64,000 nt of DNA from Myxococcota bacterium (GTDB lineage Bacteria > Myxococcota_A > UBA796 > JAFGLY01): contig JAJRWT010000097.1 in the NCBI GenBank assembly GCA_024276675.1, forward strand, positions 5,660 to 69,659, in the 5' to 3' direction. Of this stretch, positions 3 through 17,794 are shown piece by piece. Position numbers and translations under genes: made by a program. The notes under the pieces are model-generated. The model searched no databases. It was given only the letters and a program-made list of their open reading frames with translations, and was not told where the DNA came from. Every line of letters begins with the position of its first letter. Within the stretch, counting starts at the first letter, position 1.

Positions 3-593
3 GTGTTCATGGGCACCATGTTGCTCTGCTTGGTGCTTGGCATCTTTTTCGATGCCCCGCTGAAGGTCCTGGCCGATCCAGTACACCCCGAAAACCCGGC
101 CAAGGCCCCCTGGTACTTCCTGGGCCTGCAAGAGTTGGTGTCCTACTCGGCCTTCGTGGGTGGCTTGTTCATCCCGGCGGTCACCGTCGTGGGGCTGGGC
201 CTGGTGCCCTACCTGGACCGCGAGAAGGAACCCGCGGGAATCTACCTGGATGGCGCCCACAACAAGCGCATCGCCTTGCACAGCGCGCTCTTCGGCACAC
301 TCTGCGCCGTGCTGGCGGTGGCCATCCCCGTGAACTTCGGGTGGCTTCGGGACTGGTTCCCGGGCGTCCCGCAGCTCTTCATCATCCTGTTCAACCCGGG
401 GACGCTCCTCACCGCCGCGTACGTGGCCTGGTCCCTGCGCGTGGCGGGCAGGACCGGCTCCACCAGGTCCTCGGCCATAGCCCTCTTCACCTGCTTTCTC
501 ATGGGCTTCATCATCCTCACCTATGTGGGCACCGAACTCCGGGGCCCCAACTGGGACTTCTACTGGTCCCGTTCCGACTGGCCGGTTCACTGA
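3..593 (+). CDS. Cytochrome b C-terminal (PetD/subunit IV-like) part of a Rieske/cyt b quinol oxidoreductase; probably 5'-truncated by the window edge
   Basis: APLKVLADPVHPENPAKAPWYFLGLQEL resembles the PEWY Qo-site region of cyt b/subunit IV; several TM helices; RGPNW C-terminal motif. Confidence 0.8.
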   Translation: MFMGTMLLCLVLGIFFDAPLKVLADPVHPENPAKAPWYFLGLQELVSYSAFVGGLFIPAVTVVGLGLVPYLDREKEPAGIYLDGAHNKRIALHSALFGTLCAVLAVAIPVNFGWLRDWFPGVPQLFIILFNPGTLLTAAYVAWSLRVAGRTGSTRSSAIALFTCFLMGFIILTYVGTELRGPNWDFYWSRSDWPVH

Positions 594-605
594 AGGAGCA
601 GGACC

Positions 606-3440
606 ATGACCTTGCCAGAGAACCGCCGTGGCTCCAACGAGAACCTGGAAGAGGCCCTCGCTGCCCTGGTCGCCCGGGATCAGCTCCACAAGCTGGCGCT
701 CCTGGTGCTGAGCACCCTCGCCATCGTGGCCCTGGCCTGGGCCGCGCTTGCCGAGAACCTCCTGCCCGGTTGGCGCTCGTATCAGCAGCAGTACGGGGAA
801 ATCCTCCAGGACAAGGCCACCGACGACCTCGGCAGGCAGCTCGCCGACGACTTCCACGTGGAGGTGCGCCAGGTGGTGCTGCCCGAGTTGGCAACCATCG
901 ATCGCTGCGTGAGCTGTCACGTGGGTCTCGAGGACCCGCGCATGGCGGAGGCCCCACAGCCCTTCACGAGCCACCCCGGGGACTTCCTCGAACAGCACGA
1001 GGTGGACGAGTTCGGCTGTGTCGTGTGTCACGACGGTCAGGGGCGGGCCCTGCTCCAGGACGACGCCCACGGCCAGGGGGAGCACTGGCACCATCCCGTC
1101 GAAGCGAAAGAGACTGTGTACACCAACTGCTCCCGCTGTCACCAGGAGGCTGATCTCTTCGCCTCCGACTCCGACCTGTACGTGGTCTCCACCGAACCGC
1201 GCCCCATCTTCCAGGACGAGCTGGACGGTGCCGTACCGGGCTTCGAAGCTGCCGAGGCAAGAAAGCTCCTGCGCGGCAAGGACCTGGTGAAGAGCCTGGG
1301 ATGCCTGGGGTGCCACAGGTACCACGGTCGGGGCGGGCTGCTGGGGCCGGATCTCTCCTACACCGGCGACAAGCTCTCGCTGGACTTCGACTTCTCACAC
1401 GTGCAGGGGGAGCACACGGTGGCTCATTGGCTGCAGGAACACTTCCTGGACCCGCAGGCCGTTTCCCCGGGTACGCTCATGCCCGACATGGACCTGAGCG
1501 AGTCCCAGGCCCGGGCACTGACCCTCTACCTGCTCGCCCAGCACGAGAAGACCATGCCCGCCGCCCTCCGGCCCGCTCCGCCGGCCATCTCGGGAGTCGT
1601 GGTGGGCGGCGAGCGCATCTACTCCCTCTTCTGCGCTGCCTGTCACGGGAGCGACGGCCAGGGAAGCACGATGCGCCAGGCCCGGGGGGAAGCGCCGGAA
1701 GACACCCCCGTGGAGTTGATGGTCCCGTCGCTGAGCAGCTCCGACACCCTCTCCGTGGCCAGCGACACCTACCTCGCCCGCGTCATCCAGCAGGGACGAC
1801 CCGGCACGGCGATGGTGGGCTGGGCGGCGATGGAGGGGGAAGGGCTCCGGCAGGACGAGATCGCCCGGCTGGTGGACTACCTGCGTGGCTGGCAGCCTTC
1901 GGGCGCGGACCCGTTCCTGGTGGACTCGGGCCGCGGGGATCCGGAACTGGGGGGGCGGGTCTTCGCCGAGCACTGTGCTGCCTGCCACGGCGACGAAGGG
2001 CGCGGCGGGCTCGCGGTTTCCCTCCGGGCCACGAGCTTTCTATCCATCTCCACCGACAGGTTCCTGGCCCAGACCATAGTGGAAGGTCGCCCCGACACGG
2101 CCATGCCAGCCTGGCGCGATCTCGACCGCGGGCTCGTGCAGGACGTAATCGCCGCCATTCGCACCTGGCAACCCACCGGCGGCGGGGAAGCGCTGGTCCT
2201 GCGTCTGGCTTCCGGGCCCGACGGGCCCCGGGCATCCGCCGACTTCGGGCGTACCATCTACAAGGGTGACTGCGCCGTGTGCCACGGTTCCCGGGGCGAA
2301 GGCGACCTGGGACCCTCCCTCGTAACACCGGAGTTCCTGGCAGTCGTGGACGACAGATATCTCCTGGACGCCATAGTCAAGGGCAGACCCGACACGGCCA
2401 TGCCCGCCTGGCGCCACCTGGGCGCCCCCCAGCAGGCCTCGTTGATCAAGTATCTACGCGCTGAACAGCCCGCTCCGTCCCGTACTCTCCCAGGACCCGG
2501 CGGCGAGGGAGACATCGCCCGGGGCAGCCAACTCTACGCCGGCACCTGCTCCGGCTGTCATGGAGAACGGGCCGAGGGGGGCGTCGGGCCACAGCTCGGC
2601 AACCCGGTCTTCCTGGCCAGCGCCACCGACGCACTGATCCGCAACTGGGTCCTCCACGGGCGAGGGGGTCCGCCCATGCTGGGCTTCGACAAGAGCGCGG
2701 GCGGGATGGTGGAGCTTTCCACCCGGCAGGTGGACGACATCGTGGCCTATGTCCGCTCCCTCCAGGACCGGCCCATGGAAGTCCTGTGCAAGAACCCCTC
2801 CGGCTCGGCTACCCTTGGGACCACCTGGTACGAGGGGGCCTGCTCATCCTGCCACGGCGCAGACGGCAGGGGAGACACCGGCCCGGCCCTTGCCAACCAC
2901 GGCTTCCTGGAGGTGGTCTCCGACGGCTTCATCCAGGCCACCATGTCCCTGGGGCGGGACGGTACGGAGATGAGGCCGGTCAAGAAGGGCGCCCAGTCCA
3001 TCGTCGCGCTGACCACCGACCAGATGGACGACATCGTCGCGCTCCTGAGGAGCTGGGAGCGTTCGCCCCCGTCGCTGGCCCAGAGGTACGTCATCCCCTG
3101 GGACCTGTCCCTGGGCGAGGAGCTGTGGATCGGCAACTGCTCCGGCTGCCACGGTCTGCGAGGCAAAGCCGAAACTCATCCCGCCGGTCAGGAGGCGGCC
3201 TGGGCGCCCAACCTCAACAACCAGGGTTTCCTGGATGCGGCCACGGACGGCTTTCTGCAAGCGACCATCATCAAGGGCCGGAGCGGCACCGCGATGCGCT
3301 CCTTCAGCCAGAACTCACAGAGCCTCTCCAACCTGGACAGCCAGCAGATCGACGCCATCGTCGCCCACATCCGCTCCTGGTCCAACCAAGACGACGTACC
3401 CAGCACGGGGCTGGCCTACACAGCAGAGCCAGGCACCTGA
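606..3440 (+). CDS. Membrane-anchored decaheme cytochrome c
   Basis: N-terminal TM helix; 10 CxxCH (CVSCH, CVVCH, CSRCH, CLGCH, CAACH, CAACH, CAVCH, CSGCH, CSSCH, CSGCH); last six in class I domains each followed by a GRxxxxM distal-Met motif; AAGGAG RBS upstream. Confidence 0.9.
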   Translation: MTLPENRRGSNENLEEALAALVARDQLHKLALLVLSTLAIVALAWAALAENLLPGWRSYQQQYGEILQDKATDDLGRQLADDFHVEVRQVVLPELATIDRCVSCHVGLEDPRMAEAPQPFTSHPGDFLEQHEVDEFGCVVCHDGQGRALLQDDAHGQGEHWHHPVEAKETVYTNCSRCHQEADLFASDSDLYVVSTEPRPIFQDELDGAVPGFEAAEARKLLRGKDLVKSLGCLGCHRYHGRGGLLGPDLSYTGDKLSLDFDFSHVQGEHTVAHWLQEHFLDPQAVSPGTLMPDMDLSESQARALTLYLLAQHEKTMPAALRPAPPAISGVVVGGERIYSLFCAACHGSDGQGSTMRQARGEAPEDTPVELMVPSLSSSDTLSVASDTYLARVIQQGRPGTAMVGWAAMEGEGLRQDEIARLVDYLRGWQPSGADPFLVDSGRGDPELGGRVFAEHCAACHGDEGRGGLAVSLRATSFLSISTDRFLAQTIVEGRPDTAMPAWRDLDRGLVQDVIAAIRTWQPTGGGEALVLRLASGPDGPRASADFGRTIYKGDCAVCHGSRGEGDLGPSLVTPEFLAVVDDRYLLDAIVKGRPDTAMPAWRHLGAPQQASLIKYLRAEQPAPSRTLPGPGGEGDIARGSQLYAGTCSGCHGERAEGGVGPQLGNPVFLASATDALIRNWVLHGRGGPPMLGFDKSAGGMVELSTRQVDDIVAYVRSLQDRPMEVLCKNPSGSATLGTTWYEGACSSCHGADGRGDTGPALANHGFLEVVSDGFIQATMSLGRDGTEMRPVKKGAQSIVALTTDQMDDIVALLRSWERSPPSLAQRYVIPWDLSLGEELWIGNCSGCHGLRGKAETHPAGQEAAWAPNLNNQGFLDAATDGFLQATIIKGRSGTAMRSFSQNSQSLSNLDSQQIDAIVAHIRSWSNQDDVPSTGLAYTAEPGT

Positions 3441-3480
3441 CGAACCCCGACCAGAACCCGAAAGAGGGAGTCCGAATCCA

Positions 3481-6216
3481 ATGAAGCGGCAAAGAGGCCC
3501 GATATCATTCCATCGCCGAAAGTTCATGCAGATGGCCGCGGGCACGGGAGTGTCCTGCGTCTTCGCCAACTTTCTCACCAGCGACTTCGTCCGGGCGGCC
3601 AAGGCCTCGACGGATCACCTGGCCTCCGGCGTCAAGCTCCTCCAGTCCGCGTGCCCCTACTGCGGCGTCGGGTGCGGCACCTTGATCAAGGTCCAGGACG
3701 GCAGGGTGGCGGGGATGGTGCCCGACAAGAAGCACCCCACCAACCGCGGAATCCAGTGTATAAAGGGCCTCAACGCCCACGAGCCCATCTACCGGGATCG
3801 TCTTTCGCAGGTGCTGGTGCGCAAGGACCTGAGCGATCCGCTGAGGGGTCACGTATCCGCCACAAAGGGGCGCTTCGACGACGATGTCTTCGAGGCCGTT
3901 CCCCTCCACGAGGCCGAGGAGCTGGTGACGGAGAAGATCGCCGGGATCATCGCCGCCAGGGGGCCCAACACGGTGGGTCTCAATGGCTCGGGTCAGCTCA
4001 CCATGGAGGCCCAGTGGATCGAAAACATCCTCATGAAGGGGGTGATCGGCTCCAACTCCATCGAGGCAAACGCCCGGATGTGCATGACCTCGGCCGTCAC
4101 CGGCTACTTCCACTCCTACGGCTCGGACGCGCCCCCCACCTGCTACGACGACATCGAGCAGGCCGACTTCATCACCTTCTGGGGCCACAACGCCCGAGAG
4201 GCCCATCCCGTGCTGTTCTGGCGCGTGGCGGACCACAAGAAGCGCGCGGGCATCCCCACGCTGGTCTCCGACCCGCGGCGCACCGGGACCGTGGTGGGCC
4301 TGGAGTCCATCGATCCCCGCAACAGCCTGCACCTGCAGACGCTCAACGGTGACATCAGCTATCACAACGCCATCGCCCACGTGCTCCTCACCCGCTACCC
4401 CGAGGCCTGCATGCCTGAAAGCTGGCTGGAGCAGCACACCACGGGCTGGAAGGACTACGTTGCCGGGGTAAAGGCCCGCTACTCGCCCGCCCAGGTGGTG
4501 GAGCGCCTGAAGATGCTGGACCGCGGCAGGGTGACGGTACGGCAGATCGAGCACATCGCAAAAACCTGGGCCGAGGCCTCCATCAAAGGCCGAAAGCGTG
4601 GTCGAGGCGGTGTGCTCACCTTCTGGGGCATCGGCTACAACCAGATGCTCCACGGGCAACACAACACCATCGGCCTGGTGAACCTGCACCTGCTCACCGG
4701 CAACGTGGGGCGTCCCGGCTGCGGGAGCCACTCCCAGACGGGCCAGCCCAACGCCATGAGCGAGCGCCTCATGGGTGGGCTCACCGGCCGGCTCCCCTTC
4801 AACAAGCCGCTCTCGGATCCTGACTGGCGTGAGCACATGGAAAAGGCCTGGGGGCTGCCGGCCAAGCGGCTGGAGGCCGTGAGCGCGCTGCCAAATCCCG
4901 GGATGGTGGTGGGCATGATGGAGCGAGCCCTCAAGGACGAACTCCTGGCCATGTTCTGGATCTACACCACCCACATCCACATGCCCGACGTGGAGACCCT
5001 GGTGCGGCCCGCCTTGAGCAAGATGTTCGTGGTGGTGCAGGACATCTACCGGCACGCTCCCAACAACCTCTACGCCGACGTAATCTTCCCCGCGGCCACC
5101 TGGGGCGAGTGGGTGGGGGGCACCTACATCCAATCGGAGCGCCGCCTGTACGTGTGTGACGGCACGGCCAACCCCCCTCCCAACTGCCTGCCCGACATGG
5201 ACCTGGCCATCGACAAGGCCAAGGCCCTGGCCAGGAAGCTGGGCCTGGACGCGGACCGCATCCTCCCCTTCGAGAAGAAGATCAAGCTCGGGAACGGGCT
5301 GATGGCATACGATCCCGAGGATGTCTTCCGCGAGATACTCCGAGCCAGCGCCGGTTCCGACGCGGACCTCACCGGGATGCTCCAGGTGGAAGAGCAGGAC
5401 GGAGTCAGCCCCTACACCCAGATGCGCCAGCTTCGCGGCATCCAGTGGCCAGCGCCAACGGCCGATATCGCCCGGGCGGGCGGCACCAGGCGTCGCTACC
5501 TGGGTCAGGAAGGTTGGACCGACAAGCCGTATGGAGCCTTTCCCAAGAAGGGCGGCAAGGCGAAGTTCAAGCTCTGCGAACAGGACTACTCTCAGATCCA
5601 CGAGATCTGCGACGATCTCATGGAGTTCGGCTCCAGCGCCCAGCCTGGGGCCGGCCCCTACCTCATCGACGAACTTGCGGACGCCAAGAGCACGGGGAGG
5701 GACAACTTGTTGGTGCGGGCCCGCAACGCCGCGCTTCCACCCGAACTACCCGACCTGGCCGTCTACGAGAACCGCGCCAAGGGGCTGAGCGACCACGTCG
5801 CGCTAGACAGCTTCCCTTTCTGGCTCTCCCTGGGCATCGTCTACGAGCACTTCCACGCCTCCAAGACCATCCGCGGCCCCACCACCTTGAAGCTGGTCCC
5901 CGAGCAGTACGTGGAGATCAACGATCAGGACGCCGCTCGTTTCGGGCTGCGCGATGGCGAGTGGGTTCGCGTGGTGACCAGGCGGGGCAGCTACGAAGCA
6001 CGGGTCTCCATCGGCACGGGCAGCCTCATTCGTCCGGCTCGCTCGGTGGTTCCCCCCGGGCTCATTTTCAGCCCCTGGAACCTCTCGGTAGCGGACAGCG
6101 CCGATCCCCAAGAGAACAGGTGGCTTGCCAACGCCACCAGCCACCGGGGCTGGGACCCCGTCAGCGGCCAGGTGGACTACAAGAAGCTGGCGGCACGCAT
6201 AGAAAAGATCTCTTGA
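3481..6216 (+). CDS. napA: Tat-exported molybdopterin oxidoreductase, nitrate reductase (NapA/NasA) family catalytic subunit
   Basis: ATG at 3481 after GAGGGAG; twin-Arg HRRKFMQ; [4Fe-4S] CPYCGVGC...CIKG; Mo ligand ARMCMTSAV; GQPNAM; C-terminal dinucleotide-binding domain ending DPVSGQVDYK; napGH-like neighbours. Confidence 0.8.
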   Translation: MKRQRGPISFHRRKFMQMAAGTGVSCVFANFLTSDFVRAAKASTDHLASGVKLLQSACPYCGVGCGTLIKVQDGRVAGMVPDKKHPTNRGIQCIKGLNAHEPIYRDRLSQVLVRKDLSDPLRGHVSATKGRFDDDVFEAVPLHEAEELVTEKIAGIIAARGPNTVGLNGSGQLTMEAQWIENILMKGVIGSNSIEANARMCMTSAVTGYFHSYGSDAPPTCYDDIEQADFITFWGHNAREAHPVLFWRVADHKKRAGIPTLVSDPRRTGTVVGLESIDPRNSLHLQTLNGDISYHNAIAHVLLTRYPEACMPESWLEQHTTGWKDYVAGVKARYSPAQVVERLKMLDRGRVTVRQIEHIAKTWAEASIKGRKRGRGGVLTFWGIGYNQMLHGQHNTIGLVNLHLLTGNVGRPGCGSHSQTGQPNAMSERLMGGLTGRLPFNKPLSDPDWREHMEKAWGLPAKRLEAVSALPNPGMVVGMMERALKDELLAMFWIYTTHIHMPDVETLVRPALSKMFVVVQDIYRHAPNNLYADVIFPAATWGEWVGGTYIQSERRLYVCDGTANPPPNCLPDMDLAIDKAKALARKLGLDADRILPFEKKIKLGNGLMAYDPEDVFREILRASAGSDADLTGMLQVEEQDGVSPYTQMRQLRGIQWPAPTADIARAGGTRRRYLGQEGWTDKPYGAFPKKGGKAKFKLCEQDYSQIHEICDDLMEFGSSAQPGAGPYLIDELADAKSTGRDNLLVRARNAALPPELPDLAVYENRAKGLSDHVALDSFPFWLSLGIVYEHFHASKTIRGPTTLKLVPEQYVEINDQDAARFGLRDGEWVRVVTRRGSYEARVSIGTGSLIRPARSVVPPGLIFSPWNLSVADSADPQENRWLANATSHRGWDPVSGQVDYKKLAARIEKIS

Positions 6217-6229
6217 GTCTCCCGTGGTG

Positions 6230-6835
6230 ATGAACCGTAGAGATCTCTTGAAGAACGTGTTGGCCCTGAGCGCGGTCTCGCTGCCCCTGGCGTTGCTGGG
6301 CACCAGCCATGCCGCGGGGGACAACCTGCTGCGTCCCCCGGGAGCCCTGGACGAGCGGAGCTTTCTGTCCCGTTGTATCCGCTGCGCTCGCTGTGTGGAT
6401 GCCTGTCCCAACAAGGCCATCGTGCCGCTGGACGCCAGCTTCGGACATGCCAGGATCTCCACGCCGGCCATCCAGGCCCGCCGGCAGGCCTGCATGCTCT
6501 GCAACCGGGTGGAGGGGGACTACCTGCTGTGTACCACCGCTTGTCCCACCGGTGCCCTTCAGCCGGTGCGCAAGGACCCCGCCGAGATAATGGCCAGAGT
6601 ATCCATGGGAACGGCTGTGATAGACCAGCAGCTATGCTACTCCTACAACAACTGGAGCTGCGGGGCCTGCTACCGGGCCTGCCCCCTGTCGGGGCTGGCC
6701 ATGACGCTCGGTCTGTGGGAGCGCCCCACCGTGGACCCCGCCCACTGCATCGGCTGCGGCCTCTGCGAGCGCTCCTGCATCCGCTATCCCCACGCCATCA
6801 GGGTCCAGAGCCATCGCGGCAGGGCGGCTTCATGA
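6230..6835 (+). CDS. napG: NapG/MauM-family periplasmic ferredoxin (copy 1)
   Basis: Tat signal MNRRDLLK; LRPPGA..E..F...CIRCARCVDACP; four Cys clusters. Confidence 0.8.
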   Translation: MNRRDLLKNVLALSAVSLPLALLGTSHAAGDNLLRPPGALDERSFLSRCIRCARCVDACPNKAIVPLDASFGHARISTPAIQARRQACMLCNRVEGDYLLCTTACPTGALQPVRKDPAEIMARVSMGTAVIDQQLCYSYNNWSCGACYRACPLSGLAMTLGLWERPTVDPAHCIGCGLCERSCIRYPHAIRVQSHRGRAAS

Positions 6836-7590
6836 GCCTCACGCGTCGTCGGATTCTGCGAGATGCCGTCGGTGCAGGCGCGTCGCTCTTCGCCTTCCTC
6901 GGCGTCTCCGGCCTGCTGCGCCTCGTGCTGGGGGCTGGCGCTTCCAGCTACCCGGTGGACGGTGGAACATCCGGCTCGCTGGATGGGTGCGGAACCACGG
7001 CTGGAGACGCGCTCCTCCCAAGGCTGATCCGCCCCCCCGGAGCCCTGGAAGAGCCAGCCTTCCTGGCCGGGTGCATCCGCTGCTACCGCTGCCAGGACGC
7101 CTGTGACATCGGTGCTGTGCGCTTCCTGGGCGAGGGCGCCGGCGAGAGCTTCCTCTCCCCCTATATCGATCCGGCGGCGAAGGCCTGCAACTTGTGCATG
7201 AAGTGCACCCGGTCCTGTCCCACCGGGGTACTGGTGCCCATGGAGCCCGAGGAGCGCCGGGAGGTCTCCATGGCAACGGTTACCCTGGAGGCCGCGCTCT
7301 GCCTCTCCCACAAGGCAGCGTCCATTCGGGACCGACAGGCCCTCCTGGTGGAGGCGGGCAGGGAGGCCACCGAGGTGGAGGCCACACTGGAGCGGCGGGG
7401 GCCCTGCGGCGAGTGCTACATGTTCTGTCCCGAACGTGGTCGGGCCATCGATATCCAACCGGGGGGATTCCTTGCACCTCGGGTGTTCCCCGACAAGTGC
7501 GTCGGCTGCGGCCTGTGCGAGGAGATCTGCCGGGTGATCCTTCGGGGCAGGCCCGCCATCCAGGTCGTACCCACGCGGAGCTGGACATGA
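6832..7590 (+). CDS. NapG/MauM-family ferredoxin (copy 2)
   Basis: ATGA overlap; MSLTRRRIL plus hydrophobic helix; IRPPGA..E..F...CIRCYRCQDAC, CNLCMKCTRSCP, CGECYMFCP, CVGCGLCEEIC. Confidence 0.8.
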   Translation: MSLTRRRILRDAVGAGASLFAFLGVSGLLRLVLGAGASSYPVDGGTSGSLDGCGTTAGDALLPRLIRPPGALEEPAFLAGCIRCYRCQDACDIGAVRFLGEGAGESFLSPYIDPAAKACNLCMKCTRSCPTGVLVPMEPEERREVSMATVTLEAALCLSHKAASIRDRQALLVEAGREATEVEATLERRGPCGECYMFCPERGRAIDIQPGGFLAPRVFPDKCVGCGLCEEICRVILRGRPAIQVVPTRSWT

Positions 7591-9161
7591 AACCAGCCCG
7601 CCGAGCTGCTCCAGTACGGAGCCAGGGCGTCGTCCAGCTCCTGCGCCGTGCGGCCCAGGCCAGCGTCGCGTGTATCATGGTGTCCGTCGTGTTCCTGGGC
7701 CTCTATGCCCACTACCGGGCGGCCGACGCCATTGACGACCTGGATGCGGAGGCCGGTTGGAGGGCACCTGTACTGGCCGCTATACACGAGATCGTAGACC
7801 CCATGGACGACCCCTGGAGCTTTCTCCAGGGATTCGGAGGCAACGTCTGGTCCATGAGGCTCTTCGGCTACGACATCACGGACCCCCTGGCGGCGCTGGA
7901 CGCCAGCGCGGCGTCGCTCTCGATACACGCGCCGCTGCTCATGTCCATCCTGCTGCCCGTGCTGCTCACGCTCCTGCTGGGCAAGGTGTATTGTAGCTGG
8001 CTTTGCCCTGCCAACGTCATCTTCGAACTCGCCTCCGGGCTTCGCCGGCTCTTGCGTTTCCTGGAGCTGAGGCCCGCCAACCTGCGCTTCTCTCGACGGA
8101 ACAAGTACCTGCTGCTCCTGGCGGGGCTCGTCATGGGCGCTCTGGGCAGCCTGCCCCTCTTCGCCTTGTTCTACCCACCCGCGGTCTTGAGCCGCACCGT
8201 CCACGCGCTCATATTCGGAACGGCAGCCACGGGCACCCTCGTCTTTTTCTCGGTCCTGCTGGCCTTCGAGCTGCTGGTATCTCCTCGCTGGTGGTGCCGC
8301 TACATGTGCCCGGGCGGCGCCCTCTACGGTCTCATGGGCTGGCCGCGGCTGCTCCGCGTCCGGCACGCCCCGGACCTGTGCACCAACTGCGGGGCCTGCC
8401 ACGCCCACTGCAAGGCCGGGCTCGACCCGCCGCGGCAGAGCTTCGGTATCGAGTGCGACAACTGCGGCCAGTGCGTCAGGCACTGCGGAAGCAGGGCCAT
8501 GAGCTGGGGGCTGGGCCTTCCTGCCTGGCTTTCCCGGACAACCATCGTGCTGCTGCTCCTGGCACCGCTCGCTCCCCGGGCCGGGGCCCACCACATCCTG
8601 GGCCTTCCCCACTACTCCTACAAGGAGAACTACCCCCAGGTGCCCGTGCTGGAGTACCCCGCCGAGAGCGGTCCCTACGACATCCTGCTCACCGCCTACC
8701 CCGGAGTCCCCAACCCCGGCGAGGCGGCCAACCTGAGCGTCTACGTGAAGGACAAGCTCACGGGCCAGGTCTACGACGATCCCGTCCAGGTGCGGGTCCT
8801 GCGAACCTTCACCTTTGGCAGCAACCAGGTGATCCTGGAGCCGGTGAGCCTCCTCCCCCTGGATCGTGTCTACACCGTGGCGGTGATGTTTCCCGCCGAC
8901 GGCGAGTATATCGTGGAGGTCTCCCTGGAGGTGGAGGGAAAGCTGGAGGTCATACCCTTCCTGGTGGTGGCGGGGGATCCCTCCTCGGCCACGGCTCCCC
9001 TGCTGATCTTGATGGGAGCGATGGGGATCTTCATAGTCGTGGTGAGGGCCGTGGGGATCAAGCGGGGACGTGGGAAGAATCCGAAAGAAGGAGACCTCCG
9101 AAGCGGGCTCCCCAAAGGTGACACAAGCCGGGACATCCCCTCGCCACGCGAGGCGAAATGA
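7587..9161 (+). CDS. napH: NapH/MauN-family quinol dehydrogenase membrane subunit with fused C-terminal extracytoplasmic domain
   Basis: ATGA overlap; TDPLA, GKVYCSWLCP, WWCRYMCPGGALY, CTNCGACHAHC, CDNCGQCVRHC; ~190 extra residues ending in a TM helix and tail. Confidence 0.8.
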   Translation: MKPARRAAPVRSQGVVQLLRRAAQASVACIMVSVVFLGLYAHYRAADAIDDLDAEAGWRAPVLAAIHEIVDPMDDPWSFLQGFGGNVWSMRLFGYDITDPLAALDASAASLSIHAPLLMSILLPVLLTLLLGKVYCSWLCPANVIFELASGLRRLLRFLELRPANLRFSRRNKYLLLLAGLVMGALGSLPLFALFYPPAVLSRTVHALIFGTAATGTLVFFSVLLAFELLVSPRWWCRYMCPGGALYGLMGWPRLLRVRHAPDLCTNCGACHAHCKAGLDPPRQSFGIECDNCGQCVRHCGSRAMSWGLGLPAWLSRTTIVLLLLAPLAPRAGAHHILGLPHYSYKENYPQVPVLEYPAESGPYDILLTAYPGVPNPGEAANLSVYVKDKLTGQVYDDPVQVRVLRTFTFGSNQVILEPVSLLPLDRVYTVAVMFPADGEYIVEVSLEVEGKLEVIPFLVVAGDPSSATAPLLILMGAMGIFIVVVRAVGIKRGRGKNPKEGDLRSGLPKGDTSRDIPSPREAK

Positions 9162-11107
9162 GCAGCCCAACAGGGCGTTGGCTGGGTCGGGCGAAGCTCG
9201 CGTTCCCCTACCTGCTGCTGCTGGCGGCGCTGCTGGGCGTGTTCTGCTCCAACCTGGGCTCTGACCCGGGCCGGGACCAGGCGACGAGGGCTGAGCCCGC
9301 CCTGCCGACGCTGGTGGATCCCGTCTGCGGGATGGAGGTCAACCCGGCCTGGGGGCACAGCCAGGATCACGCGGGTCGGAGCTACTACTTCTGCAGCGAG
9401 TCCTGCAAGCTGAAATTCGCCTCCAACCCCGACCAATACCTGCAGGAGAGCTGCCCGGTCTGCGGCGAGCCAGTGTCGCCATCCCGCGCCTTTCCCGCCA
9501 CCTACCTGGGGAAGACATACGAGCTGTGCTCCCAGGAGCACCGGCGACTCTTCAAGGCCGATCCCGCCGGGTACTTCATGCACACCATGTGGGGGATCCC
9601 CGACTGGCTGTACTACCTGTCCATCGGCATCGTGCTGCTGATCTCGTTCCTGGTGCTGGAGATTCCCGGCGAGAGGGCCGGTGCAGGAGCACGGCCACGC
9701 CTGGACCTCATGGCGTCGAGACCCATGCGTATCCTTGCGGGATCGCGTGTCTTTCGCTTCCTCCTGCAGCTCTCCGTCGTGCTGCTCTTCCTGCTGGTGA
9801 TAGCCGCCGGTCTCTACGGCGTGCAGAACCCCGCCATGAACATCGCCCCCTTGCTCACCTGGACGGTGTGGTGGGGAGGGCTGGTGGTGGTGATCATGTT
9901 CCTGGGCAAGGCCTGGTGCTACGTGTGCCCCTGGGACGCCATCGCCGGGTGGGTCGAGGGCATGAGCCTGTGGAGGAAGCCCAGGAGGGGCATTGGCCTG
10001 GCCCTGCCATGGCCGCGCTCCTGGCGCAACATCCGTCTCGCCACCATCCTCTTCGTGGGCTTGACCTGGGTGGAGTTGGGCTTCGGTGTGACCATGTCAC
10101 CGGCAGCCACCGCCTGGCTTGCGCTGGCCATGCTCCTCCTGGCCCTGGGCTCGGTCCTGCTCTTCGACAGGAGGAGCTTCTGCCGGTACGGCTGCCTGGT
10201 GGGACGGGTGAGCGGGCTCTACGCGATGTTCTCGGCCATCGAGGTGAGGAGCCGCGACAAGGCCGCCTGCCGTGCCTGCCGGAGCAAGGAGTGCGTGAAA
10301 GGCAGCGCCACCGCCCACGGCTGCCCCACCTTCCAGTACCCCGGGGGCATGCAGACCAACACCTACTGCATACAGTGCATGGAGTGCGTCCAGGCCTGTC
10401 CCCACGACAACATCGCGGTCAACCTGCGCCCCTGGGGCTCCGACCTGGCGGTGGGCGGCAAGCCAGCCAGCGACGAGGCCTTCCTTGCGCTGCTCATGCT
10501 GTCCATCACGGCATTCCACGGCCTCACCATGACCCCCGCGTGGCGTGACCTGCTGGCGGTCCTGGAAGCTCCGGCATGGTCGGGCCAGGTGCTCTCCTTC
10601 AGCCTGGGCATGGTGGCCATCATGCTGGCCCCCATCGCCCTGTTCACGCTGCTGGTGCGTATGTCCCACATGCTGGCCCTCCGCTCCGGCGGGGCACGAG
10701 GCCCAGGGTTCGGCGGCTACTTCGTCAGATACGCCTACTGCGTCCTCCCCATCGCCCTCTTCTACCACCTGGCCCACAACCTGGAGCACTTGTTGATGGA
10801 AGGCCCAAAGGTGGTGGCACTCATCAGCGACCCCCTTGGGCGGGGATGGAACCTCATGGGAACGGCCGGGCTGTCCATCCCGCCCATGGTCTCGCTGGAC
10901 ACCCTCTGGATCCTCCAGGTGGTGCTGGTGGCCGTGGGCCACGTGTACAGCCTGTGGGCGGCCCGCGAGATCAGCCGGCGCAGCTTCGGCGACCACGCCC
11001 TGGCCCGCCGCAGCCAGTGGCCCATCCTCCTGGGCATGATAGCCTTCTCCATCTTCAGCCTGTGGCTCCTCAAGCAGCCCATGGAGATGCGCAGCTCGGC
11101 GATGTAG
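9158..11107 (+). CDS. YHS-YHS domain + polytopic 4Fe-4S membrane protein (NapH/CcoG/NosR-related polyferredoxin)
   Basis: DPVCGMEV...YYFCSESCKLKFASNPDQY and CPVCGEPV...YELCSQEHRRLFKADPAGY; GKAWCYVCPW, FCRYGC, CIQCMECVQACP; many TM helices; ATGA overlap. Confidence 0.8.
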   Translation: MSSPTGRWLGRAKLAFPYLLLLAALLGVFCSNLGSDPGRDQATRAEPALPTLVDPVCGMEVNPAWGHSQDHAGRSYYFCSESCKLKFASNPDQYLQESCPVCGEPVSPSRAFPATYLGKTYELCSQEHRRLFKADPAGYFMHTMWGIPDWLYYLSIGIVLLISFLVLEIPGERAGAGARPRLDLMASRPMRILAGSRVFRFLLQLSVVLLFLLVIAAGLYGVQNPAMNIAPLLTWTVWWGGLVVVIMFLGKAWCYVCPWDAIAGWVEGMSLWRKPRRGIGLALPWPRSWRNIRLATILFVGLTWVELGFGVTMSPAATAWLALAMLLLALGSVLLFDRRSFCRYGCLVGRVSGLYAMFSAIEVRSRDKAACRACRSKECVKGSATAHGCPTFQYPGGMQTNTYCIQCMECVQACPHDNIAVNLRPWGSDLAVGGKPASDEAFLALLMLSITAFHGLTMTPAWRDLLAVLEAPAWSGQVLSFSLGMVAIMLAPIALFTLLVRMSHMLALRSGGARGPGFGGYFVRYAYCVLPIALFYHLAHNLEHLLMEGPKVVALISDPLGRGWNLMGTAGLSIPPMVSLDTLWILQVVLVAVGHVYSLWAAREISRRSFGDHALARRSQWPILLGMIAFSIFSLWLLKQPMEMRSSAM

Positions 11108-11662
11108 GGACTACCCCGCCTGAGCATGGCGACCCCGGTTCATGAACGGCCGGGCATGGCAACGAACCCACGAACTTCAAGTCATCCCGTGTCCACGTTG
11201 CCACGAAATCACCGCAGAGCAGCCCATCGCGCCGAACGTCGTGGAGATCCCGCCAGGAAAGGGCGGTGCTCGCACACTTGGACCAGGGGTGAACGCCTTC
11301 TCGACCGCTTGACGGTATTCGTTCTTGGCGTTCTTCCAGAAGCCTTCTCGAAGGTCGGAGCCGTCGCTCCAGCGCTCCAACCCCTCCATGACCGAGCTGT
11401 CTGGGTCGCGTCGCACCAGATCATTGATAAAGGGCTCATCCCGCCGGAATAGTCGCCTCAGACCTTGGCGTCACTTTGAGCTGCCGGCCGGGACCCGCTA
11501 CCTCTGGGCGCCGACCGGGCTTTTCCGTGCGGGCCGTGAGACCTCGTCTGCGCTATGCCATGATGGGAACTGGCGGCTTCCGGAGTCCGCCGCAAGCGAA
11601 GGACTCACAGCGGATGTGGGAGAACGCTCGGGGAGCGCCTCCCCACGACCCCTACGACGAGA

Positions 11663-11688
11663 GAGGCCCAGGATTCCCCTGGGCTCCT
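11663..11688 (-). terminator. Possible hairpin terminator downstream of tmRNA
   Basis: GCCCAGG-attcc-CCTGGGC inverted repeat just 3' of tmRNA; no good U-tract. Confidence 0.35.
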
Positions 11689-11700
11689 ACAAGAAGAAAA

Positions 11701-12072
11701 TGGAGGCGGCGGGAGTCGAACCCGCGTCCGAAATCGCTCGGCTTTGGCTTCTACATGCTTAGCCTCCGGTCTACCACTCCGTGAGCTCGGAGGCCCCCGC
11801 TTTCACGGAATGAGCGACGATTTGTCGGGGTTGTTTGTCGTCCCCTGGGCGCCACGCCACGAAGCGCCTTCAGGACTAGCCAGGTCTTGACGCGCCCGAA
11901 ACTGGAACCCTGGCATTGCCAGCTCGGACGGCTCGGCCGCTACGCGGCGGCGAGAGCGAAGCTGTCGTTGTTGTTGGCAGCTATTTTGGTTTTCCCGGTG
12001 TTTTGCGAGGTACCGAGCACCTCGACATGCAGCCTCGGCCTACCACGACCCCGTCGAACCCGTTTCGCCCCC
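11701..12072 (-). ncRNA. ssrA: tmRNA (transfer-messenger RNA)
   Basis: 5' GGGGGCGAAACGGGTTCGAC pairs with 3' ...GGGTTCGACTCCCGCCGCCTCCA (G3.U alanine stem, T-loop); internal tag frame ANNNDSFALAAA* at 11978-11940; 372 nt; terminal CCA not encoded. Confidence 0.95.
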
Positions 12073-12659
12073 TCGATGGTGGATGGGCCGGATGGAATGG
12101 GGATGAAGGGGACTGGCCCCACGACCATCCGGTTCACTGTGTTCCTTCTTTCAATGTGACCACTGGCGAATACACTGTCAAGCCCCACCTTCAACTCTTT
12201 CTGGCTGTCGTTGGTGCTCGCCTGCTGCTTTCCTTCCCCGGACCCCTTCTCGTATCGGGAATGTGGCACAGGCGGGTTGAAGCCTGGTAGGAAGCATGGG
12301 GCTGGGGGGGGGCACACCCTTGGGAAGGAGCATCGTGAAGGCCGGTACAACACTCGCAAGGAGCACGAACCGGGCCTGTGCTCCGTCGGATCGGCGAGAA
12401 ATGGCTTGACGTCGGATGCGAAGCACCATAAATCACGCGCCTTCCATACCTCGTCCCGTCTGCGCCGACATAAACCCGCCAACTGCACGGTTATGCGCTT
12501 TCGTCCTGGTTCACCGGAAATATCCACGCATCTCACCCGGGCCAATTGGGCGCCAACTTCCGTGGCGGGTTCCGCAGCCATCCTCGCAGCGACGCCGCGC
12601 AGCGTCATTTCAACTCTCACACATTCCATTTTCCAACCATGCTCGTAAGGAGCCAGGCA

Positions 12660-13550: not shown

Positions 13551-13577
13551 CTCCCGGGGCAACACCACCGTCAAAAA

Positions 13578-13619
13578 GGAAGGGGCAGGCCGGTATCATT
13601 CGGCTCCTGCCCCTTTTCC
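13578..13619 (+). terminator. Intrinsic terminator-like hairpin after lsrF
   Basis: AAGGGGCAGG...CCTGCCCCTT stem, TTTT after and an A-run before. Confidence 0.55.
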
Positions 13620-13660
13620 ATACACTTTCCAGATACTTTCCATATTTCCATAAATTCCGA
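13615..13660 (+). repeat. TTTCCA direct repeats (x4 plus a degenerate copy)
   Basis: TTTCCA at 13615, 13626, 13637, 13645; TTCCGA at 13655. Confidence 0.6.
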
Positions 13661-13672
13661 GAGAGGTGAGAC

Positions 13673-14749: not shown

Positions 14750-14785
14750 GCCCGCACACCTTCCTCGACCCGGCAGGACAGTCAA

Positions 14786-17696: not shown

Positions 17697-17794
17697 CCCC
17701 GCTGGCACAATGGCGCCTTCCGTTTGCAGTGGACTTCAATTTCCCGCAAACAAAGGCTATACTGCATGTGGACCATCAGGATGAGGAGACCGCC

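What the first reader, a model, noticed from the sequence alone, without database searches (positions are those of the whole stretch)
3..11107. Candidate novel respiratory module: cytochrome bc-type complex wired through a decaheme cytochrome to a periplasmic nitrate-reductase-family enzyme, plus duplicated NapG/NapH-like quinol dehydrogenases
Seen: seven co-oriented genes with gaps of 40 bp or less or ATGA overlaps: cyt b C-terminus (APWYF), 10-heme cyt c, Tat-molybdoenzyme, NapG x2, NapH fusion, YHS-polyferredoxin. No napB, napC or napD is visible. Known: classical Nap draws electrons from quinol through NapC or NapGH/NapB and does not itself pump protons, whereas Rieske/cyt b complexes run a proton-motive Q-cycle. 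Inference: the decaheme replaces NapB and links a bc complex to the enzyme. That would make periplasmic oxyanion reduction energy-conserving, with NapGH as a second electron entry route.
Basis: partly seen in the sequence, partly recalled or inferred. Interest (0 to 1): 0.88.

Follow-up and report, generated by a model that had tools for sequence, protein, structure and literature searches.

The report
Cytochrome bc-linked Nap-like reductase operon
A conserved nine-gene operon joins a cytochrome bc complex that carries an NAD(P)-linked flavoprotein to an unnamed relative of periplasmic nitrate reductase, a pairing that could help test how such complexes split electrons.

Summary
The seven genes are the 3' part of a nine-gene operon. 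The 5.6 kb before the window encode a GltD/NfnB-like NAD(P)/FAD iron-sulfur protein, a Rieske protein and the N-terminal part of a fused 517-aa cytochrome b.

Gene order is conserved. Of 52 related loci with enough upstream flank, 40 have all four upstream genes. Of 44 with enough downstream flank, 40 have all four downstream genes.

The molybdoenzyme belongs to an unnamed, tightly conserved clade outside canonical NapA. It keeps the Nap-type Cys-Met and Arg. The same genome has a canonical NapA with NapD and a NapB-like gene elsewhere, also behind Rieske/cytochrome b genes.

The bc module most resembles the anammox NAD(P)-reductase Rieske/cytochrome b complexes.

bc-coupled Nap is not new as an idea: Caldithrix genomics and Campylobacter genetics already show it. 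This architecture turned up in none of nine literature searches. I rate it a new variant of a known kind. Nitrate is the likely but unproven substrate. NAD(P)+ reduction by electron bifurcation is the boldest reading the evidence allows.

The parts
3..593 (+). 3' part (SUIV-like C-terminal half) of a fused 517-aa cytochrome b gene that starts 960 nt before the window (L001 4699-6252). Directly upstream, outside the window, lie the Rieske gene (L001 4223-4702) and the GltD/NfnB-like NAD(P)/FAD iron-sulfur flavoprotein gene (L001 2331-4238).
   Evidence: Pfam Cytochrom_B_C for the window part. Cytochrome_B and Cytochrom_B_N_2 for the whole gene, Rieske PF00355, and Fer4_20 + Pyr_redox_2 + Fer4 for the flavoprotein. 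In 32 orthologues the residues H116, H130, H229, H244 and the A356-P357-W358-Y359 motif are invariant.
606..3440 (+). Membrane-anchored decahaem c-type cytochrome (944 aa): an N-terminal TM helix, three c7/c3-like haems, then seven class I cytochrome c domains.
   Evidence: Pfam Cytochrom_C (7 stretches), Cytochrome_CBB3 and Cytochrome_C7. One TM segment at residues 30-48. 10 CXXCH in 51 of 53 complete orthologues.
3481..6216 (+). Tat-exported Mo/W-bisPGD enzyme (911 aa) of an unnamed clade in the Nap/Nas/Fdh radiation; a probable oxyanion (nitrate?) reductase.
   Evidence: NapA models score 305.1 against a cut-off of 904, and 284.5 against 930.55. Best solved relative is Desulfovibrio NapA 2jio/2nap at 245 bits. 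The Cys-Met, Arg and four FeS Cys are conserved in 120 of 120 clade members. It forms a separate clade in the tree.
6224..6835 (+). NapG-like periplasmic four-cluster ferredoxin 1 (Tat motif NRRDLL).
   Evidence: NCBIfam NapG NF007012, 128.3 bits against a cut-off of 269; Pfam Fer4 families.
6832..7590 (+). NapG-like periplasmic ferredoxin 2 (Tat motif TRRRIL).
   Evidence: NCBIfam NapG, 67.3 bits against a cut-off of 269; Pfam Fer4_7 and Fer4_10.
7587..9161 (+). NapH-like membrane iron-sulfur protein fused to a periplasmic Ig-like beta-sandwich domain (residues ~325-470) and a final TM helix.
   Evidence: TIGR02163 napH, 141.7 bits against a cut-off of 213; ccoG 33 bits. TM segments. The domain is conserved in 64 loci. 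AlphaFold2 mean pLDDT 83.6, all-beta. YtkA-like lead at 0.90-0.91. Weak fold matches to PmoD and CrdA.
9158..11107 (+). Membrane polyferredoxin: an N-terminal TM helix, two predicted periplasmic YHS domains, a NapH-like core with Cys motifs, and extra C-terminal TM helices.
   Evidence: Pfam YHS (2 stretches, 67.7 bits), Fer4_5 and Fer4. napH model 31.6 bits. About 10 hydrophobic segments. Found at the same offset in 40 of 44 loci with enough downstream flank, counted together with the other three downstream genes.

Best explanation
The locus is a nine-gene respiratory operon built from two modules.

Module 1 is a Rieske/cytochrome b complex of the anammox type. It has a Rieske protein, a fused b6+SUIV cytochrome b, a membrane-anchored decahaem cytochrome c on the periplasmic side, and a cytoplasmic GltD/NfnB-like NAD(P)/FAD iron-sulfur flavoprotein.

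Module 2 is a Tat-exported Nap-like molybdoenzyme of a distinct clade. It comes with two periplasmic NapG-type ferredoxins and two NapH-type membrane iron-sulfur proteins.

Proposed mechanism (inferred). Quinol is oxidised at the Qo site. One electron passes through the Rieske cluster and the decahaem wire to the periplasmic reductase, probably through a NapG, and reduces an oxyanion, most likely nitrate. The second electron crosses the membrane through the b haems. It then either re-reduces quinone (a Q cycle, so the reduction is electrogenic) or passes to the flavoprotein. The NapG/NapH proteins give the enzyme a second, bc-independent link to the membrane, and this link is sufficient in lineages that lack module 1.

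Shown here: gene content, domain content, conserved linkage, active-site conservation, clade separation.

Inferred: the substrate, the direction of electron flow, which protein donates to the enzyme, and the physical association of the modules.
For: Gene and domain content.

Tight spacing. The nine genes have overlaps or gaps of at most 40 nt (coordinates).

Conserved linkage, using bit thresholds that I set:
- 40 of 52 loci with at least 7.6 kb upstream have all four upstream genes; 10 have none and 2 are partial.
- 40 of 44 loci with at least 8 kb downstream have all four downstream genes.
- 25 of 36 loci with both flanks have all nine genes.
- On a tree of 81 enzyme sequences, presence or absence of the decahaem needs only 2 changes. 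Label shuffles gave a mean of 9.5, and 0 of 500 were as low.

Nap-like chemistry:
- The best solved relatives are periplasmic nitrate reductases, at E 9e-72.
- The Mo-ligand Cys, the following Met, Asp, Arg and four FeS Cys are conserved in 120 of 120 clade members.
- 108 of 120 have a Tat-like motif.
- The partners match the NapG and NapH models best.

Neighbouring genes at related loci: an Rrf2 regulator directly upstream in 30 loci; a third NapG-like ferredoxin and hemerythrin-like proteins directly downstream in about 15 loci; MoaA in 10 loci. In the 2 bc-less loci inspected: MoaA in both, MoeA in one, an Rrf2 regulator and an outer-membrane porin in both.

Anammox-type bc module:
- The Rieske protein's two best solved matches are 9rk4 (80 bits) and 9rk3 (60 bits). 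These are Kuste4569 and Kustd1480.
- It has the CPCHGSxF pattern of Kustd1480.
- The flavoprotein's best solved match is NfnABC 9bov/9bp5, the same entry the Kuenenia paper found by fold.
- The FAD and NAD(P) glycine motifs are invariant in 32 orthologues.
- Complex prediction of cytochrome b with flavoprotein residues 460-635 gave 'weak support': score 0.45, best of 3 controls 0.00. In the tool's calibration the mark was reached by 58 of 80 solved complexes and 2 of 110 mismatched pairs, but passes at 0.60 or under came from only 7 of those 80 and from both mismatches. Runs agree in at least 81% of contacts and partner pLDDT is at least 74. My own alignments were used.

Reuse in the same genome. 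A paralogous flavoprotein-Rieske-b6-SUIV-heptahaem module precedes a cbb3 oxidase with CcoG. The canonical NapA follows Rieske, cytochrome b and octahaem genes.
Against: Against nitrate as the substrate:
- No activity or expression data exist.
- The enzyme fails every curated NapA, Nas and Fdh cut-off and lies outside the canonical NapA group.
- Two positions differ systematically from canonical NapA: Glu to Ala in 116 of 120 and Met to Ile in 120 of 120. That these positions line the NapA active site is my recollection, not a tool result.
- The same genome already has a canonical NapA with NapD and a NapB-like gene, so the second enzyme may act on another substrate.
- In five other genomes holding the enzyme, NarG and NrfA were found in 0 of 5 and canonical NapA over cut-off in 0 of 5, with one near miss at 862 bits. 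In four of these genomes, NirK was found in 1 and NirS in 0 (the NirS control rang nowhere). There is thus no clear downstream nitrite pathway.
- Recalled, not seen in any call: the species description of Deferrisoma camini, the only named isolate among the 120 listed hits, reports no growth on nitrate.

Against coupling of the two modules:
- Ten loci keep module 2 without module 1.
- The bc module also sits beside a cbb3 oxidase. Adjacency may therefore reflect co-regulation rather than a complex.
- The complex prediction is only a weak pass, for one pair, without cofactors or the dimer.
Confidence: 0.6

Rival explanations
1. The two modules are independent and merely neighbours. The Mo enzyme is served only by its NapG/NapH proteins, as a non-electrogenic quinol dehydrogenase. 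The flavoprotein-bc-decahaem complex is a general complex III that feeds other periplasmic acceptors.
For: Ten of 52 loci with enough upstream flank keep the enzyme and its NapG/NapH/YHS genes with no bc genes, which shows the enzyme does not need the bc module. In the same genome a paralogous flavoprotein-bc-heptahaem module is linked to a cbb3 oxidase, so the module is not specific to this enzyme.
Against: Linkage is very stable: 40 of 52 loci, with 2 changes on the enzyme tree against 9.5 in shuffles. The 12-nt and 40-nt gaps suggest one transcript. Haem number is fixed at ten beside this enzyme (51 of 53) but is seven beside cbb3 and eight beside canonical NapA, which points to partner-specific cytochromes.
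Confidence: 0.2
2. Electron-bifurcating variant. The complex oxidises quinol and sends one electron to the high-potential oxyanion reductase. The other goes through the b haems and the iron-sulfur chain of the flavoprotein to reduce NAD(P)+. This is what has been proposed for the Kuenenia Kustd1480-85 and Kuste4569-74 complexes.
For: The flavoprotein gene is present at the same position in 40 of 52 loci, counted together with the other three upstream genes. Its FAD and NAD(P) motifs and the Cys of four clusters are invariant. The Rieske protein is closest to the two Kuenenia Rieske proteins, measured at +303 and +335 mV. An invariant N-side His47 and the R247/R249/K250 set recall the extra haem b site modelled in Kuenenia; that link is inference, since I made no alignment to Kustd1481. 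The complex prediction gave weak support: 0.45 against 0.00 for the best control. The energetics are as argued in PMC12954380 (passages read).
Against: The bifurcation mechanism is unproven even in anammox bacteria. The flavoprotein could equally feed NAD(P)H electrons into the complex. The same module sits beside a cbb3 oxidase. No sign of an autotrophic lifestyle that would need quinol-driven NAD(P)H was looked for or found here.
Confidence: 0.22
3. The enzyme runs oxidatively. It oxidises a periplasmic reductant, such as nitrite or another reduced oxyanion, and passes electrons to the high-potential class I haems. The bc complex then runs in reverse.
For: Seven class I (typically high-potential) cytochrome c domains. 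No dissimilatory nitrite reductase was found in most of the sampled holders.
Against: All known members of the Nap/Nas branch are reductases (recalled). The NapG/NapH partners are known only from reductive quinol-to-enzyme chains (PMC12780646 and PMC5317091, passages read). The Cys-Met pair is of the Nap type, not the (Se)Cys-His of formate dehydrogenases (the Fdh motif is recalled).
Confidence: 0.06
4. The YHS protein and the NapH-Ig fusion are CcoG-like metal-handling or assembly factors, not quinol dehydrogenases.
For: The architecture parallels CcoG (polyferredoxin plus Ig-like domain), which sits in the paralogous cbb3 cluster. The NapH-like protein hits the ccoG model at 33 bits. There are two YHS domains. 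The Ig-like domain carries a conserved N-terminal His motif (H11, H12, H18) and weakly matches the copper proteins PmoD and CrdA.
Against: The fold matches are generic Ig-like hits (E about 3e-3, TM about 0.5). The napH model scores far higher than ccoG (141.7 against 33 bits). A molybdoenzyme has no known need for copper. Both proteins are kept in the bc-less loci, where they are the only membrane link.
Confidence: 0.15

Closest known systems
Caldithrix abyssi nap cluster with embedded Rieske/cytochrome b genes (PMC5317091; passages read)
   Same: A periplasmic Nap-type enzyme, NapG and NapH, a multihaem cytochrome, and Rieske plus cytochrome b genes in one cluster. NapB and NapC are absent. 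The authors proposed the same two electron routes.
   Different: There the enzyme is described as NapA and the cytochrome is a tetrahaem NapM. No NAD(P) flavoprotein, second NapG or YHS polyferredoxin is mentioned in the passages I read, and an epsilon-Hao gene adjoins. Here the enzyme is of a separate clade and the cytochrome has ten haems.
Kuenenia stuttgartiensis Rieske/cytochrome b complexes Kustd1480-1485 and Kuste4569-4574 (PMC12954380; passages read)
   Same: A Rieske/cytochrome b core with a cytoplasmic NAD(P) oxidoreductase subunit rich in iron-sulfur clusters and a multihaem cytochrome c. The Rieske proteins are the closest solved relatives of the one here. The flavoprotein matches the same NfnABC entry.
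   Different: The anammox complexes carry hexa- or octahaem cytochromes, one carries an HAO-like enzyme, and they have a split b6/SUIV. Here cytochrome b is fused, the cytochrome has ten haems and the linked catalytic enzyme is a molybdoenzyme. By my reading of the translation there is no Cys at the expected haem cN position; this was not aligned formally.
Campylobacter jejuni QcrABC-dependent Nap and Tor respiration (PMC6195509; abstract read)
   Same: A menaquinol:cytochrome c reductase delivers electrons to a periplasmic Nap without NapC, which makes nitrate reduction electrogenic.
   Different: In the abstract read, the link is shown by a qcrABC deletion mutant rather than by gene linkage. 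No flavoprotein appears there.
Archaeal pNar systems: haloarchaeal Nar clustered with Rieske/cytochrome b, and the Methanoperedens nar cluster with an extended NapH-like protein (as described in PMC4683180; passages read)
   Same: An outward-facing nitrate reductase is genetically linked to a Rieske/cytochrome b complex. The NapH-like protein has extra C-terminal TM helices, like the YHS protein here.
   Different: The catalytic subunit there is NarG-type (Asp-ligated branch), not the Nap/Nas/Fdh branch. No NapG or flavoprotein is present.
Desulfovibrio desulfuricans monomeric NapA (PDB 2nap/2jio)
   Same: It is the best solved sequence match (245 bits). The Cys140-Met141 and Arg354 equivalents are conserved. 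It works without NapB, as cited in PMC5317091.
   Different: It has 723 aa against 911 aa here. One search (aligned against the genome's canonical C19 NapA, not 2nap) found window-specific insertions at residues 119-136, 687-721 and 759-775. Positions 156 and 308 differ.

Membership tests
Canonical periplasmic nitrate reductase NapA (NCBIfam TIGR01706 / NF010055) | Score over the curated equivalog cut-off | tested here: not met
   284.5 against 930.55, and 305.1 against 904. The genome's other enzyme on C19 passes with 974 and 1001 bits.
Canonical periplasmic nitrate reductase NapA (NCBIfam TIGR01706 / NF010055) | Placement inside the NapA clade | tested here: not met
   On a FastTree of 70 rows, the window clade plus 4 representatives forms a 13-row group (support 100) apart from the other 57 rows. 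Those 57 include the C19 NapA. The tree is midpoint-rooted with SH-like support only.
Canonical periplasmic nitrate reductase NapA (NCBIfam TIGR01706 / NF010055) | Tat signal, N-terminal [4Fe-4S] Cys motif, Mo-ligand Cys followed by Met, catalytic Arg | tested here: met
   The Cys, Met, Arg and four FeS Cys are conserved in 120 of 120; 108 of 120 have a Tat-like motif. Residue roles are taken from the alignment to 2jio/2nap and from recollection of the NapA literature.
Canonical periplasmic nitrate reductase NapA (NCBIfam TIGR01706 / NF010055) | Glu156 and Met308 equivalents of D. desulfuricans NapA | tested here: not met
   Ala in 116 of 120 (Thr in 4) and Ile in 120 of 120. Canonical sequences in the same alignment have Glu and Met.
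Canonical periplasmic nitrate reductase NapA (NCBIfam TIGR01706 / NF010055) | NapD chaperone and NapB or NapC partner encoded with it | tested here: not met
   NapD and NapB-like matches occur only at the C19 locus. NapC/NirT-family matches lie on C112, C42 and C99. None is on C80.
Canonical periplasmic nitrate reductase NapA (NCBIfam TIGR01706 / NF010055) | Nitrate reductase activity | not testable with these tools
   No assay is possible, and no sequencing run was listed.
NapGH quinol dehydrogenase | NapG: Tat-exported ferredoxin with four Cys clusters. NapH: four TM helices, two CX3CP motifs and two C-terminal [4Fe-4S] motifs | tested here: met
   Motifs read in the translations. Four TM segments in the NapH core. 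The best models are NapG and NapH.
NapGH quinol dehydrogenase | Score over the curated cut-offs | tested here: not met
   NapG1 scores 128.3 and NapG2 67.3 against 269. NapH scores 141.7 against 213.
Rieske/cytochrome b complexes | Rieske CTHLGC and CPCHGS boxes; four haem-ligand His in cytochrome b; a c-type cytochrome subunit | tested here: met
   The boxes are read. H116, H130, H229 and H244 are invariant in 32 orthologues. The decahaem has a TM anchor.
Rieske/cytochrome b complexes | Canonical PEWY motif at the Qo site | tested here: not met
   The motif is APWY, invariant in 32 of 32. That variants of PEWY occur in other lineages is recalled.
Anammox-type NAD(P)-oxidoreductase-bearing Rieske/cytochrome b complexes | NAD(P)/FAD iron-sulfur flavoprotein gene inside the Rieske/cytochrome b cluster | tested here: met
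   All four upstream genes are present in 40 of 52 loci.
Anammox-type NAD(P)-oxidoreductase-bearing Rieske/cytochrome b complexes | Rieske protein closest to Kuste4569 and Kustd1480 | tested here: met
   9rk4 at 80.4 bits and 9rk3 at 60.4 bits; the next hit is a b6f Rieske at 55.6 bits. The entries are identified in the paper.
Anammox-type NAD(P)-oxidoreductase-bearing Rieske/cytochrome b complexes | SUIV-like part with five TM helices | tested here: inconclusive
   Four segments pass my hydropathy threshold in the C-terminal part. A fifth, weaker stretch is visible by eye.
Anammox-type NAD(P)-oxidoreductase-bearing Rieske/cytochrome b complexes | Flavoprotein physically bound to cytochrome b | tested here: inconclusive
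   Complex prediction gave weak support: 0.45 against a best control of 0.00.
Anammox-type NAD(P)-oxidoreductase-bearing Rieske/cytochrome b complexes | Quinol-driven NAD(P)+ reduction | not testable with these tools
   This needs biochemistry. It is unproven in anammox bacteria too (PMC12954380).

The most novel reading that the evidence does not exclude
This is a natural, widespread, non-anammox version of the proposed electron-bifurcating Rieske/cytochrome b complex. Quinol oxidation is split between an exergonic branch (Rieske, decahaem, then a new clade of Nap-like reductase acting on nitrate or another high-potential oxyanion) and an endergonic branch (b haems, iron-sulfur chain, FAD, NAD(P)+). 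The operon thus encodes a quinol:oxyanion/NAD(P)+ oxidoreductase. It names, by gene linkage, the missing exergonic partner for which no proposal exists for the Kustd1480-85 complex.
Probability: 0.2. Interest if true: 0.88.

Novelty: new variant of a known kind. Interest (0 to 1): 0.66.

Why it matters
1. It defines a tightly conserved, unnamed clade of periplasmic molybdoenzymes. Members are 65-80% identical across loci labelled Planctomycetota, Elusimicrobiota, Myxococcota, Latescibacterota and others. Automatic pipelines would probably file it as a generic molybdopterin oxidoreductase or as napA, which would affect nitrogen-cycle inventories from metagenomes.

2. It shows that Rieske/cytochrome b complexes bearing an NAD(P) oxidoreductase subunit also occur outside anammox bacteria. 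The paper I read discusses them only for Kuenenia. Here they are gene-linked to identifiable terminal enzymes: this Mo enzyme, and a cbb3 oxidase in the same genome.

3. That linkage gives the long-standing bifurcation proposal concrete, testable partner reactions. It may also offer a cultivable test organism, since names a Deferrisoma camini protein at 75% identity.

The general idea that a bc complex can make periplasmic nitrate reduction electrogenic is already established.

Tried and rejected
- Expression. The look-up of sequencing runs on window:1-10000 listed no run: none was listed, and no RNA holder was listed.
- Decahaem-enzyme fusion. A 2055-aa open frame in G122 looked like a fusion. 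The translation shows a run of masked N (XXXX) and an internal Tat start, so it is an artefact.
- Promoter and terminator scan. It gave no informative + strand signal inside the operon.
- Co-occurrence with nitrite reductases. Five holders were checked for NarG and NrfA, and four of them plus G000 for NirK and NirS. This gave no clear support for a nitrate-to-ammonium or nitrate-to-N2 pathway. The NirS control rang nowhere, so that result is void.
- rpoB for taxonomy. It was not found in the 78% complete genome. The phylum of the window's genome stays unknown to me. I ran no further search on it.
- Atlas search of the YHS protein. It returned only 'Fer4_5' clusters at 0.83-0.86, which are leads only.
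- Fold search of the NapH C-terminal domain. It gave generic Ig-like matches. The PmoD and CrdA hits are weak.
- Formate dehydrogenase and arsenite oxidase. Rejected because the Cys-Met is of the Nap type and the Aio model scores 98 bits against a cut-off of 359.
- Literature. Nine searches found no description of this nine-gene architecture or of the enzyme clade.
- Papers I could not read. ten Brink et al. 2013 (BBA 1827:1392) is not held. Kartal et al. 2013 was not looked up. Either may describe related clusters.
- The Sporomusa nap paper (PMC12780646), the Lacipirellula paper (PMC6995999), the MopB phylogeny (PMC10100899) and the Nitrospina genome paper (PMC3578206). The passages I read describe other arrangements.

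Full report
WHAT IS THERE

The window is G000:C80:5660-69659.
- 3-593: the C-terminal part of cytochrome b.
- 606-3440: a 944-aa cytochrome c with 10 CXXCH and one N-terminal TM helix.
- 3481-6216: a Tat-signal molybdoenzyme of 911 aa.
- 6224-6835 and 6832-7590: two NapG-like ferredoxins.
- 7587-9161: a NapH-like protein with a C-terminal extension.
- 9158-11107: a protein with two YHS domains and a NapH-like polyferredoxin core.

The gaps are 12, 40 and 7 nt, followed by three 4-nt overlaps. Downstream genes are unrelated: a DeoC-family aldolase, two zinc alcohol dehydrogenases and others.

I fetched the 5.6 kb before the window (L001). It completes the picture.
- Cytochrome b is a fused b6+SUIV gene of 517 aa (L001 4699-6252).
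- It is preceded, with a 4-nt overlap, by a Rieske gene (4223-4702; CTHLGC and CPCHGS boxes).
- That gene is preceded, with a 16-nt overlap, by a 635-aa cytoplasmic flavoprotein (2331-4238). Its domains are a Fer4_20 domain, a Pyr_redox_2 FAD/NAD(P) domain and a C-terminal two-cluster ferredoxin domain.
- A gene on the other strand lies further upstream.

The unit is therefore nine genes long.

IS IT MORE THAN CHANCE?

The molybdoenzyme has thousands of relatives. The best 120 are 71-80% identical, 880-940 aa long, and carry only generic names.

A scan of one genome per species found 119 relatives, of which 80 loci were kept. By NCBI label these are Planctomycetota 53, Elusimicrobiota 10, Walliibacteriota 3, Myxococcota 3, Latescibacterota 2, Pseudomonadota 2 (two 'Enterobacterales' labels on metagenome bins, which I doubt), Eiseniibacteriota 1 and unlabelled 6.

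I ran tblastn with the nine proteins and set my own bit thresholds.
- Of 52 loci with at least 7.6 kb upstream, 40 have all four upstream genes at the same offsets, 10 have none and 2 are partial.
- Of 44 loci with at least 8 kb downstream, 40 have all four downstream genes.
- Of 36 loci with both flanks, 25 have all nine genes and 5 have only the enzyme plus the four downstream genes.
- Ten CXXCH are present in 51 of 53 complete orthologues of the cytochrome.

On a FastTree of 81 enzyme sequences, the decahaem-less state needs only two changes: one 15-row clade (mostly Elusimicrobiota labels) and one single locus. Label shuffles gave a mean of 9.5, and 0 of 500 were as low. Kin share labels, so this shows clustering rather than independent events.

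In an even sample of the window's own phylum, 8 of 200 other genomes hold an orthologue at 61-69% identity. The distribution is therefore patchy.

THE MOLYBDOENZYME

It scores best against the NapA models but far below their cut-offs: 305.1 against 904, and 284.5 against 930.55. Fdh-alpha follows closely at 286.7. Its best solved relatives are periplasmic nitrate reductases, led by the monomeric Desulfovibrio enzyme (2jio/2nap, 245 bits).

In a library of 50%-identity representatives the scores fall from 914, 716, 475 and 452 bits to about 300. Ten of the nearest representatives pass no curated cut-off either. In a 70-row tree, the window clade plus four of these representatives forms a 13-row group (support 100). 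It is separate from the other 57 rows, which include the genome's own canonical NapA.

Across 120 clade members:
- The Mo-ligand Cys, the following Met, an Asp, the Arg aligned to Arg354 of the Desulfovibrio enzyme and the four FeS Cys are invariant.
- Two positions that are Glu and Met in canonical NapA are Ala (116 of 120) and Ile (120 of 120).

The active site is therefore Nap-like with two fixed differences. That these two positions line the substrate funnel is my recollection.

CONTEXT THAT BEARS ON FUNCTION

At related loci an Rrf2-family regulator sits directly upstream of the flavoprotein gene in 30 loci. A third NapG-like ferredoxin and hemerythrin-like proteins sit directly downstream in about 15 loci; the hemerythrin-like proteins match the YtfE/RIC models weakly, at 31 bits. 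MoaA appears in 10 loci.

I inspected two decahaem-less loci. The upstream genes are MoaA, MoeA (in one of the two), an Rrf2 regulator and an Alginate_exp-family outer-membrane porin. This fits a regulated periplasmic oxyanion reductase and is compatible with nitrogen-oxide stress. None of it is specific.

Several points weigh against a simple reading as nitrate respiration.
- The same genome (78% complete) has a canonical NapA (974 and 1001 bits) on contig C19. Its operon is Rrf2, Rieske, cytochrome b, an octahaem cytochrome, NapD, NapA, then a NapB-like gene.
- Of five other holders, none has NarG, NrfA or a NapA over cut-off, although one has an 862-bit near miss.
- In four of those holders, one has NirK and none has NirS (the NirS control was void).

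THE bc MODULE

The Rieske protein's two best solved matches are 9rk4 (80 bits) and 9rk3 (60 bits), ahead of the b6f Rieske proteins. The paper that deposited them identifies them as Kuste4569 and Kustd1480. These are the Rieske subunits of the two Kuenenia Rieske/cytochrome b complexes that carry an NAD(P) oxidoreductase and hexa- or octahaem cytochromes, and their measured potentials are +303 and +335 mV (PMC12954380; passages read). The window protein has the CPCHGSxF pattern of Kustd1480.

The flavoprotein's best solved match is NfnABC 9bov/9bp5. This is the entry that paper found as the fold relative of Kuste4570.

In 32 orthologues of cytochrome b, the four haem-ligand His and the APWY motif (in place of PEWY) are invariant. 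So are an N-side His47 and R247, R249 and K250. The last set recalls the extra haem b site modelled in Kuenenia, but I made no alignment to that protein.

The flavoprotein's two glycine motifs and its cluster Cys are invariant.

A complex prediction of cytochrome b with flavoprotein residues 460-635 gave 'weak support'. The score was 0.45 and the best of 3 controls 0.00. Runs agreed in at least 81% of contacts and partner pLDDT was at least 74. In the tool's calibration the mark was reached by 58 of 80 solved complexes and 2 of 110 mismatched pairs, but passes at 0.60 or below were rare among true pairs (7 of 80) and included both false ones. I used my own alignments. Because conserved linkage and the anammox precedent already made binding likely, I take this as modest support.

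REUSE OF THE MODULE

On contig C42 the same genome has a paralogous flavoprotein (46% identity), Rieske, split b6 and SUIV, and a heptahaem cytochrome. They are followed by a CcoN-CcoO fusion, CcoG, a DsbD_2 protein and a copper ATPase.

The lineage therefore builds 'complex III plus terminal enzyme' operons repeatedly:
- seven haems with cbb3;
- eight haems with canonical NapA;
- ten haems with the new enzyme.

This supports partner-specific wiring. It also shows that the flavoprotein is a feature of the bc complex and not of nitrate reduction.

THE NapH-TYPE PROTEINS

The first has the four TM helices, two CX3CP motifs and two cluster motifs of NapH. These are followed by a TM helix, a periplasmic domain and a last TM helix.

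The periplasmic domain is conserved in 64 loci. It carries a near-invariant His motif and folds as an Ig-like sandwich (mean pLDDT 83.6). It scores 0.90-0.91 to 'YtkA-like' clusters, which is a lead only. It matches PmoD and CrdA only weakly.

The second protein has two YHS domains, which I predict to be periplasmic. It also has extra C-terminal helices, like the extended NapH-like protein of the Methanoperedens nar cluster (PMC4683180).

Why both membrane proteins carry metal-binding-like periplasmic domains is unexplained. A CcoG-like role is a minor rival.

COMPARISON WITH WHAT IS KNOWN
- A nap cluster with Rieske/cytochrome b genes, NapGH and a multihaem cytochrome, without NapB or NapC, was described for Caldithrix abyssi (PMC5317091).
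- Qcr-dependent, electrogenic Nap respiration was shown in Campylobacter jejuni (PMC6195509).
- Archaeal Nar enzymes are linked to Rieske/cytochrome b complexes (as described in PMC4683180).

The following turned up in none of nine literature searches:
- the separate enzyme clade;
- the anammox-type NAD(P) flavoprotein outside anammox bacteria;
- the fixed decahaem;
- the doubled NapG/NapH set with YHS and Ig-like domains;
- the wide distribution of the whole.

Two key reviews could not be read (and Kartal 2013 was not looked up), and supplements were closed.

VERDICT

The best explanation is a bc-coupled, Nap-like periplasmic reductase system with an accessory NapGH-type route (confidence 0.6). 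Nitrate is the likely substrate but is unproven. The most novel reading not excluded is quinol-driven bifurcation to the oxyanion and NAD(P)+ (probability about 0.2). Novelty: a new variant of a known kind. Interest: 0.66.

Noticed in passing
G000 contig C19, about 12,000-20,500 (L088 6176-14438, minus strand): A second bc-linked nitrate reductase locus in the same genome. The order is an Rrf2 regulator, Rieske, a 351-aa cytochrome b, an octahaem cytochrome (weak HAO/HDH-like match), NapD, a canonical NapA (1001 bits, over cut-off) and a NapB-like gene.
   Followed up: partly
G000 contig C42, about 2,500-15,200 (L089, minus strand): A paralogous GltD-like flavoprotein, Rieske, split b6 and SUIV, and a heptahaem cytochrome. 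They are followed by a CcoN-CcoO fusion, CcoG (FixG), a DsbD_2 protein and a copper P-type ATPase. This is an NAD(P)-flavoprotein bc complex gene-linked to a cbb3 oxidase.
   Followed up: partly
G000:C52:900-1551: A fragment 87-92% identical to the C-terminal part of the window's cytochrome b, with two in-frame TAG codons, near a contig end. It may be a pseudogene remnant, a strain variant or a binning artefact.
   Followed up: no
G000:C104:12900-14924: A formate-dehydrogenase-like molybdoenzyme frame of 1223 aa with one in-frame TGA, possibly selenocysteine.
   Followed up: no
window 8559-8996 and 9300-9580: Both NapH-type membrane proteins carry periplasmic domains of metal-binding type. One is an Ig-like sandwich with a conserved HH...H motif; the other has two YHS domains. 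Their role beside a molybdoenzyme is unexplained.
   Followed up: partly
L023 and L024 (loci labelled Planctomyces sp.): About 3 kb of extra DNA lies between the Rieske and cytochrome b genes (offsets -7904 and -8395 against -4759 and -5167). It is an insertion inside the otherwise conserved operon.
   Followed up: no
window 11126-11452: A 108-aa ORF lies 19 nt after the YHS gene and has no Pfam match. It is unclear whether it is a real tenth gene.
   Followed up: no
L006 and L017: The two loci whose enzyme is closest to the window's on the tree (support 100) are labelled 'uncultured Enterobacterales'. For a 66% G+C locus of this content, that label looks like a mislabelled metagenome bin.
   Followed up: no
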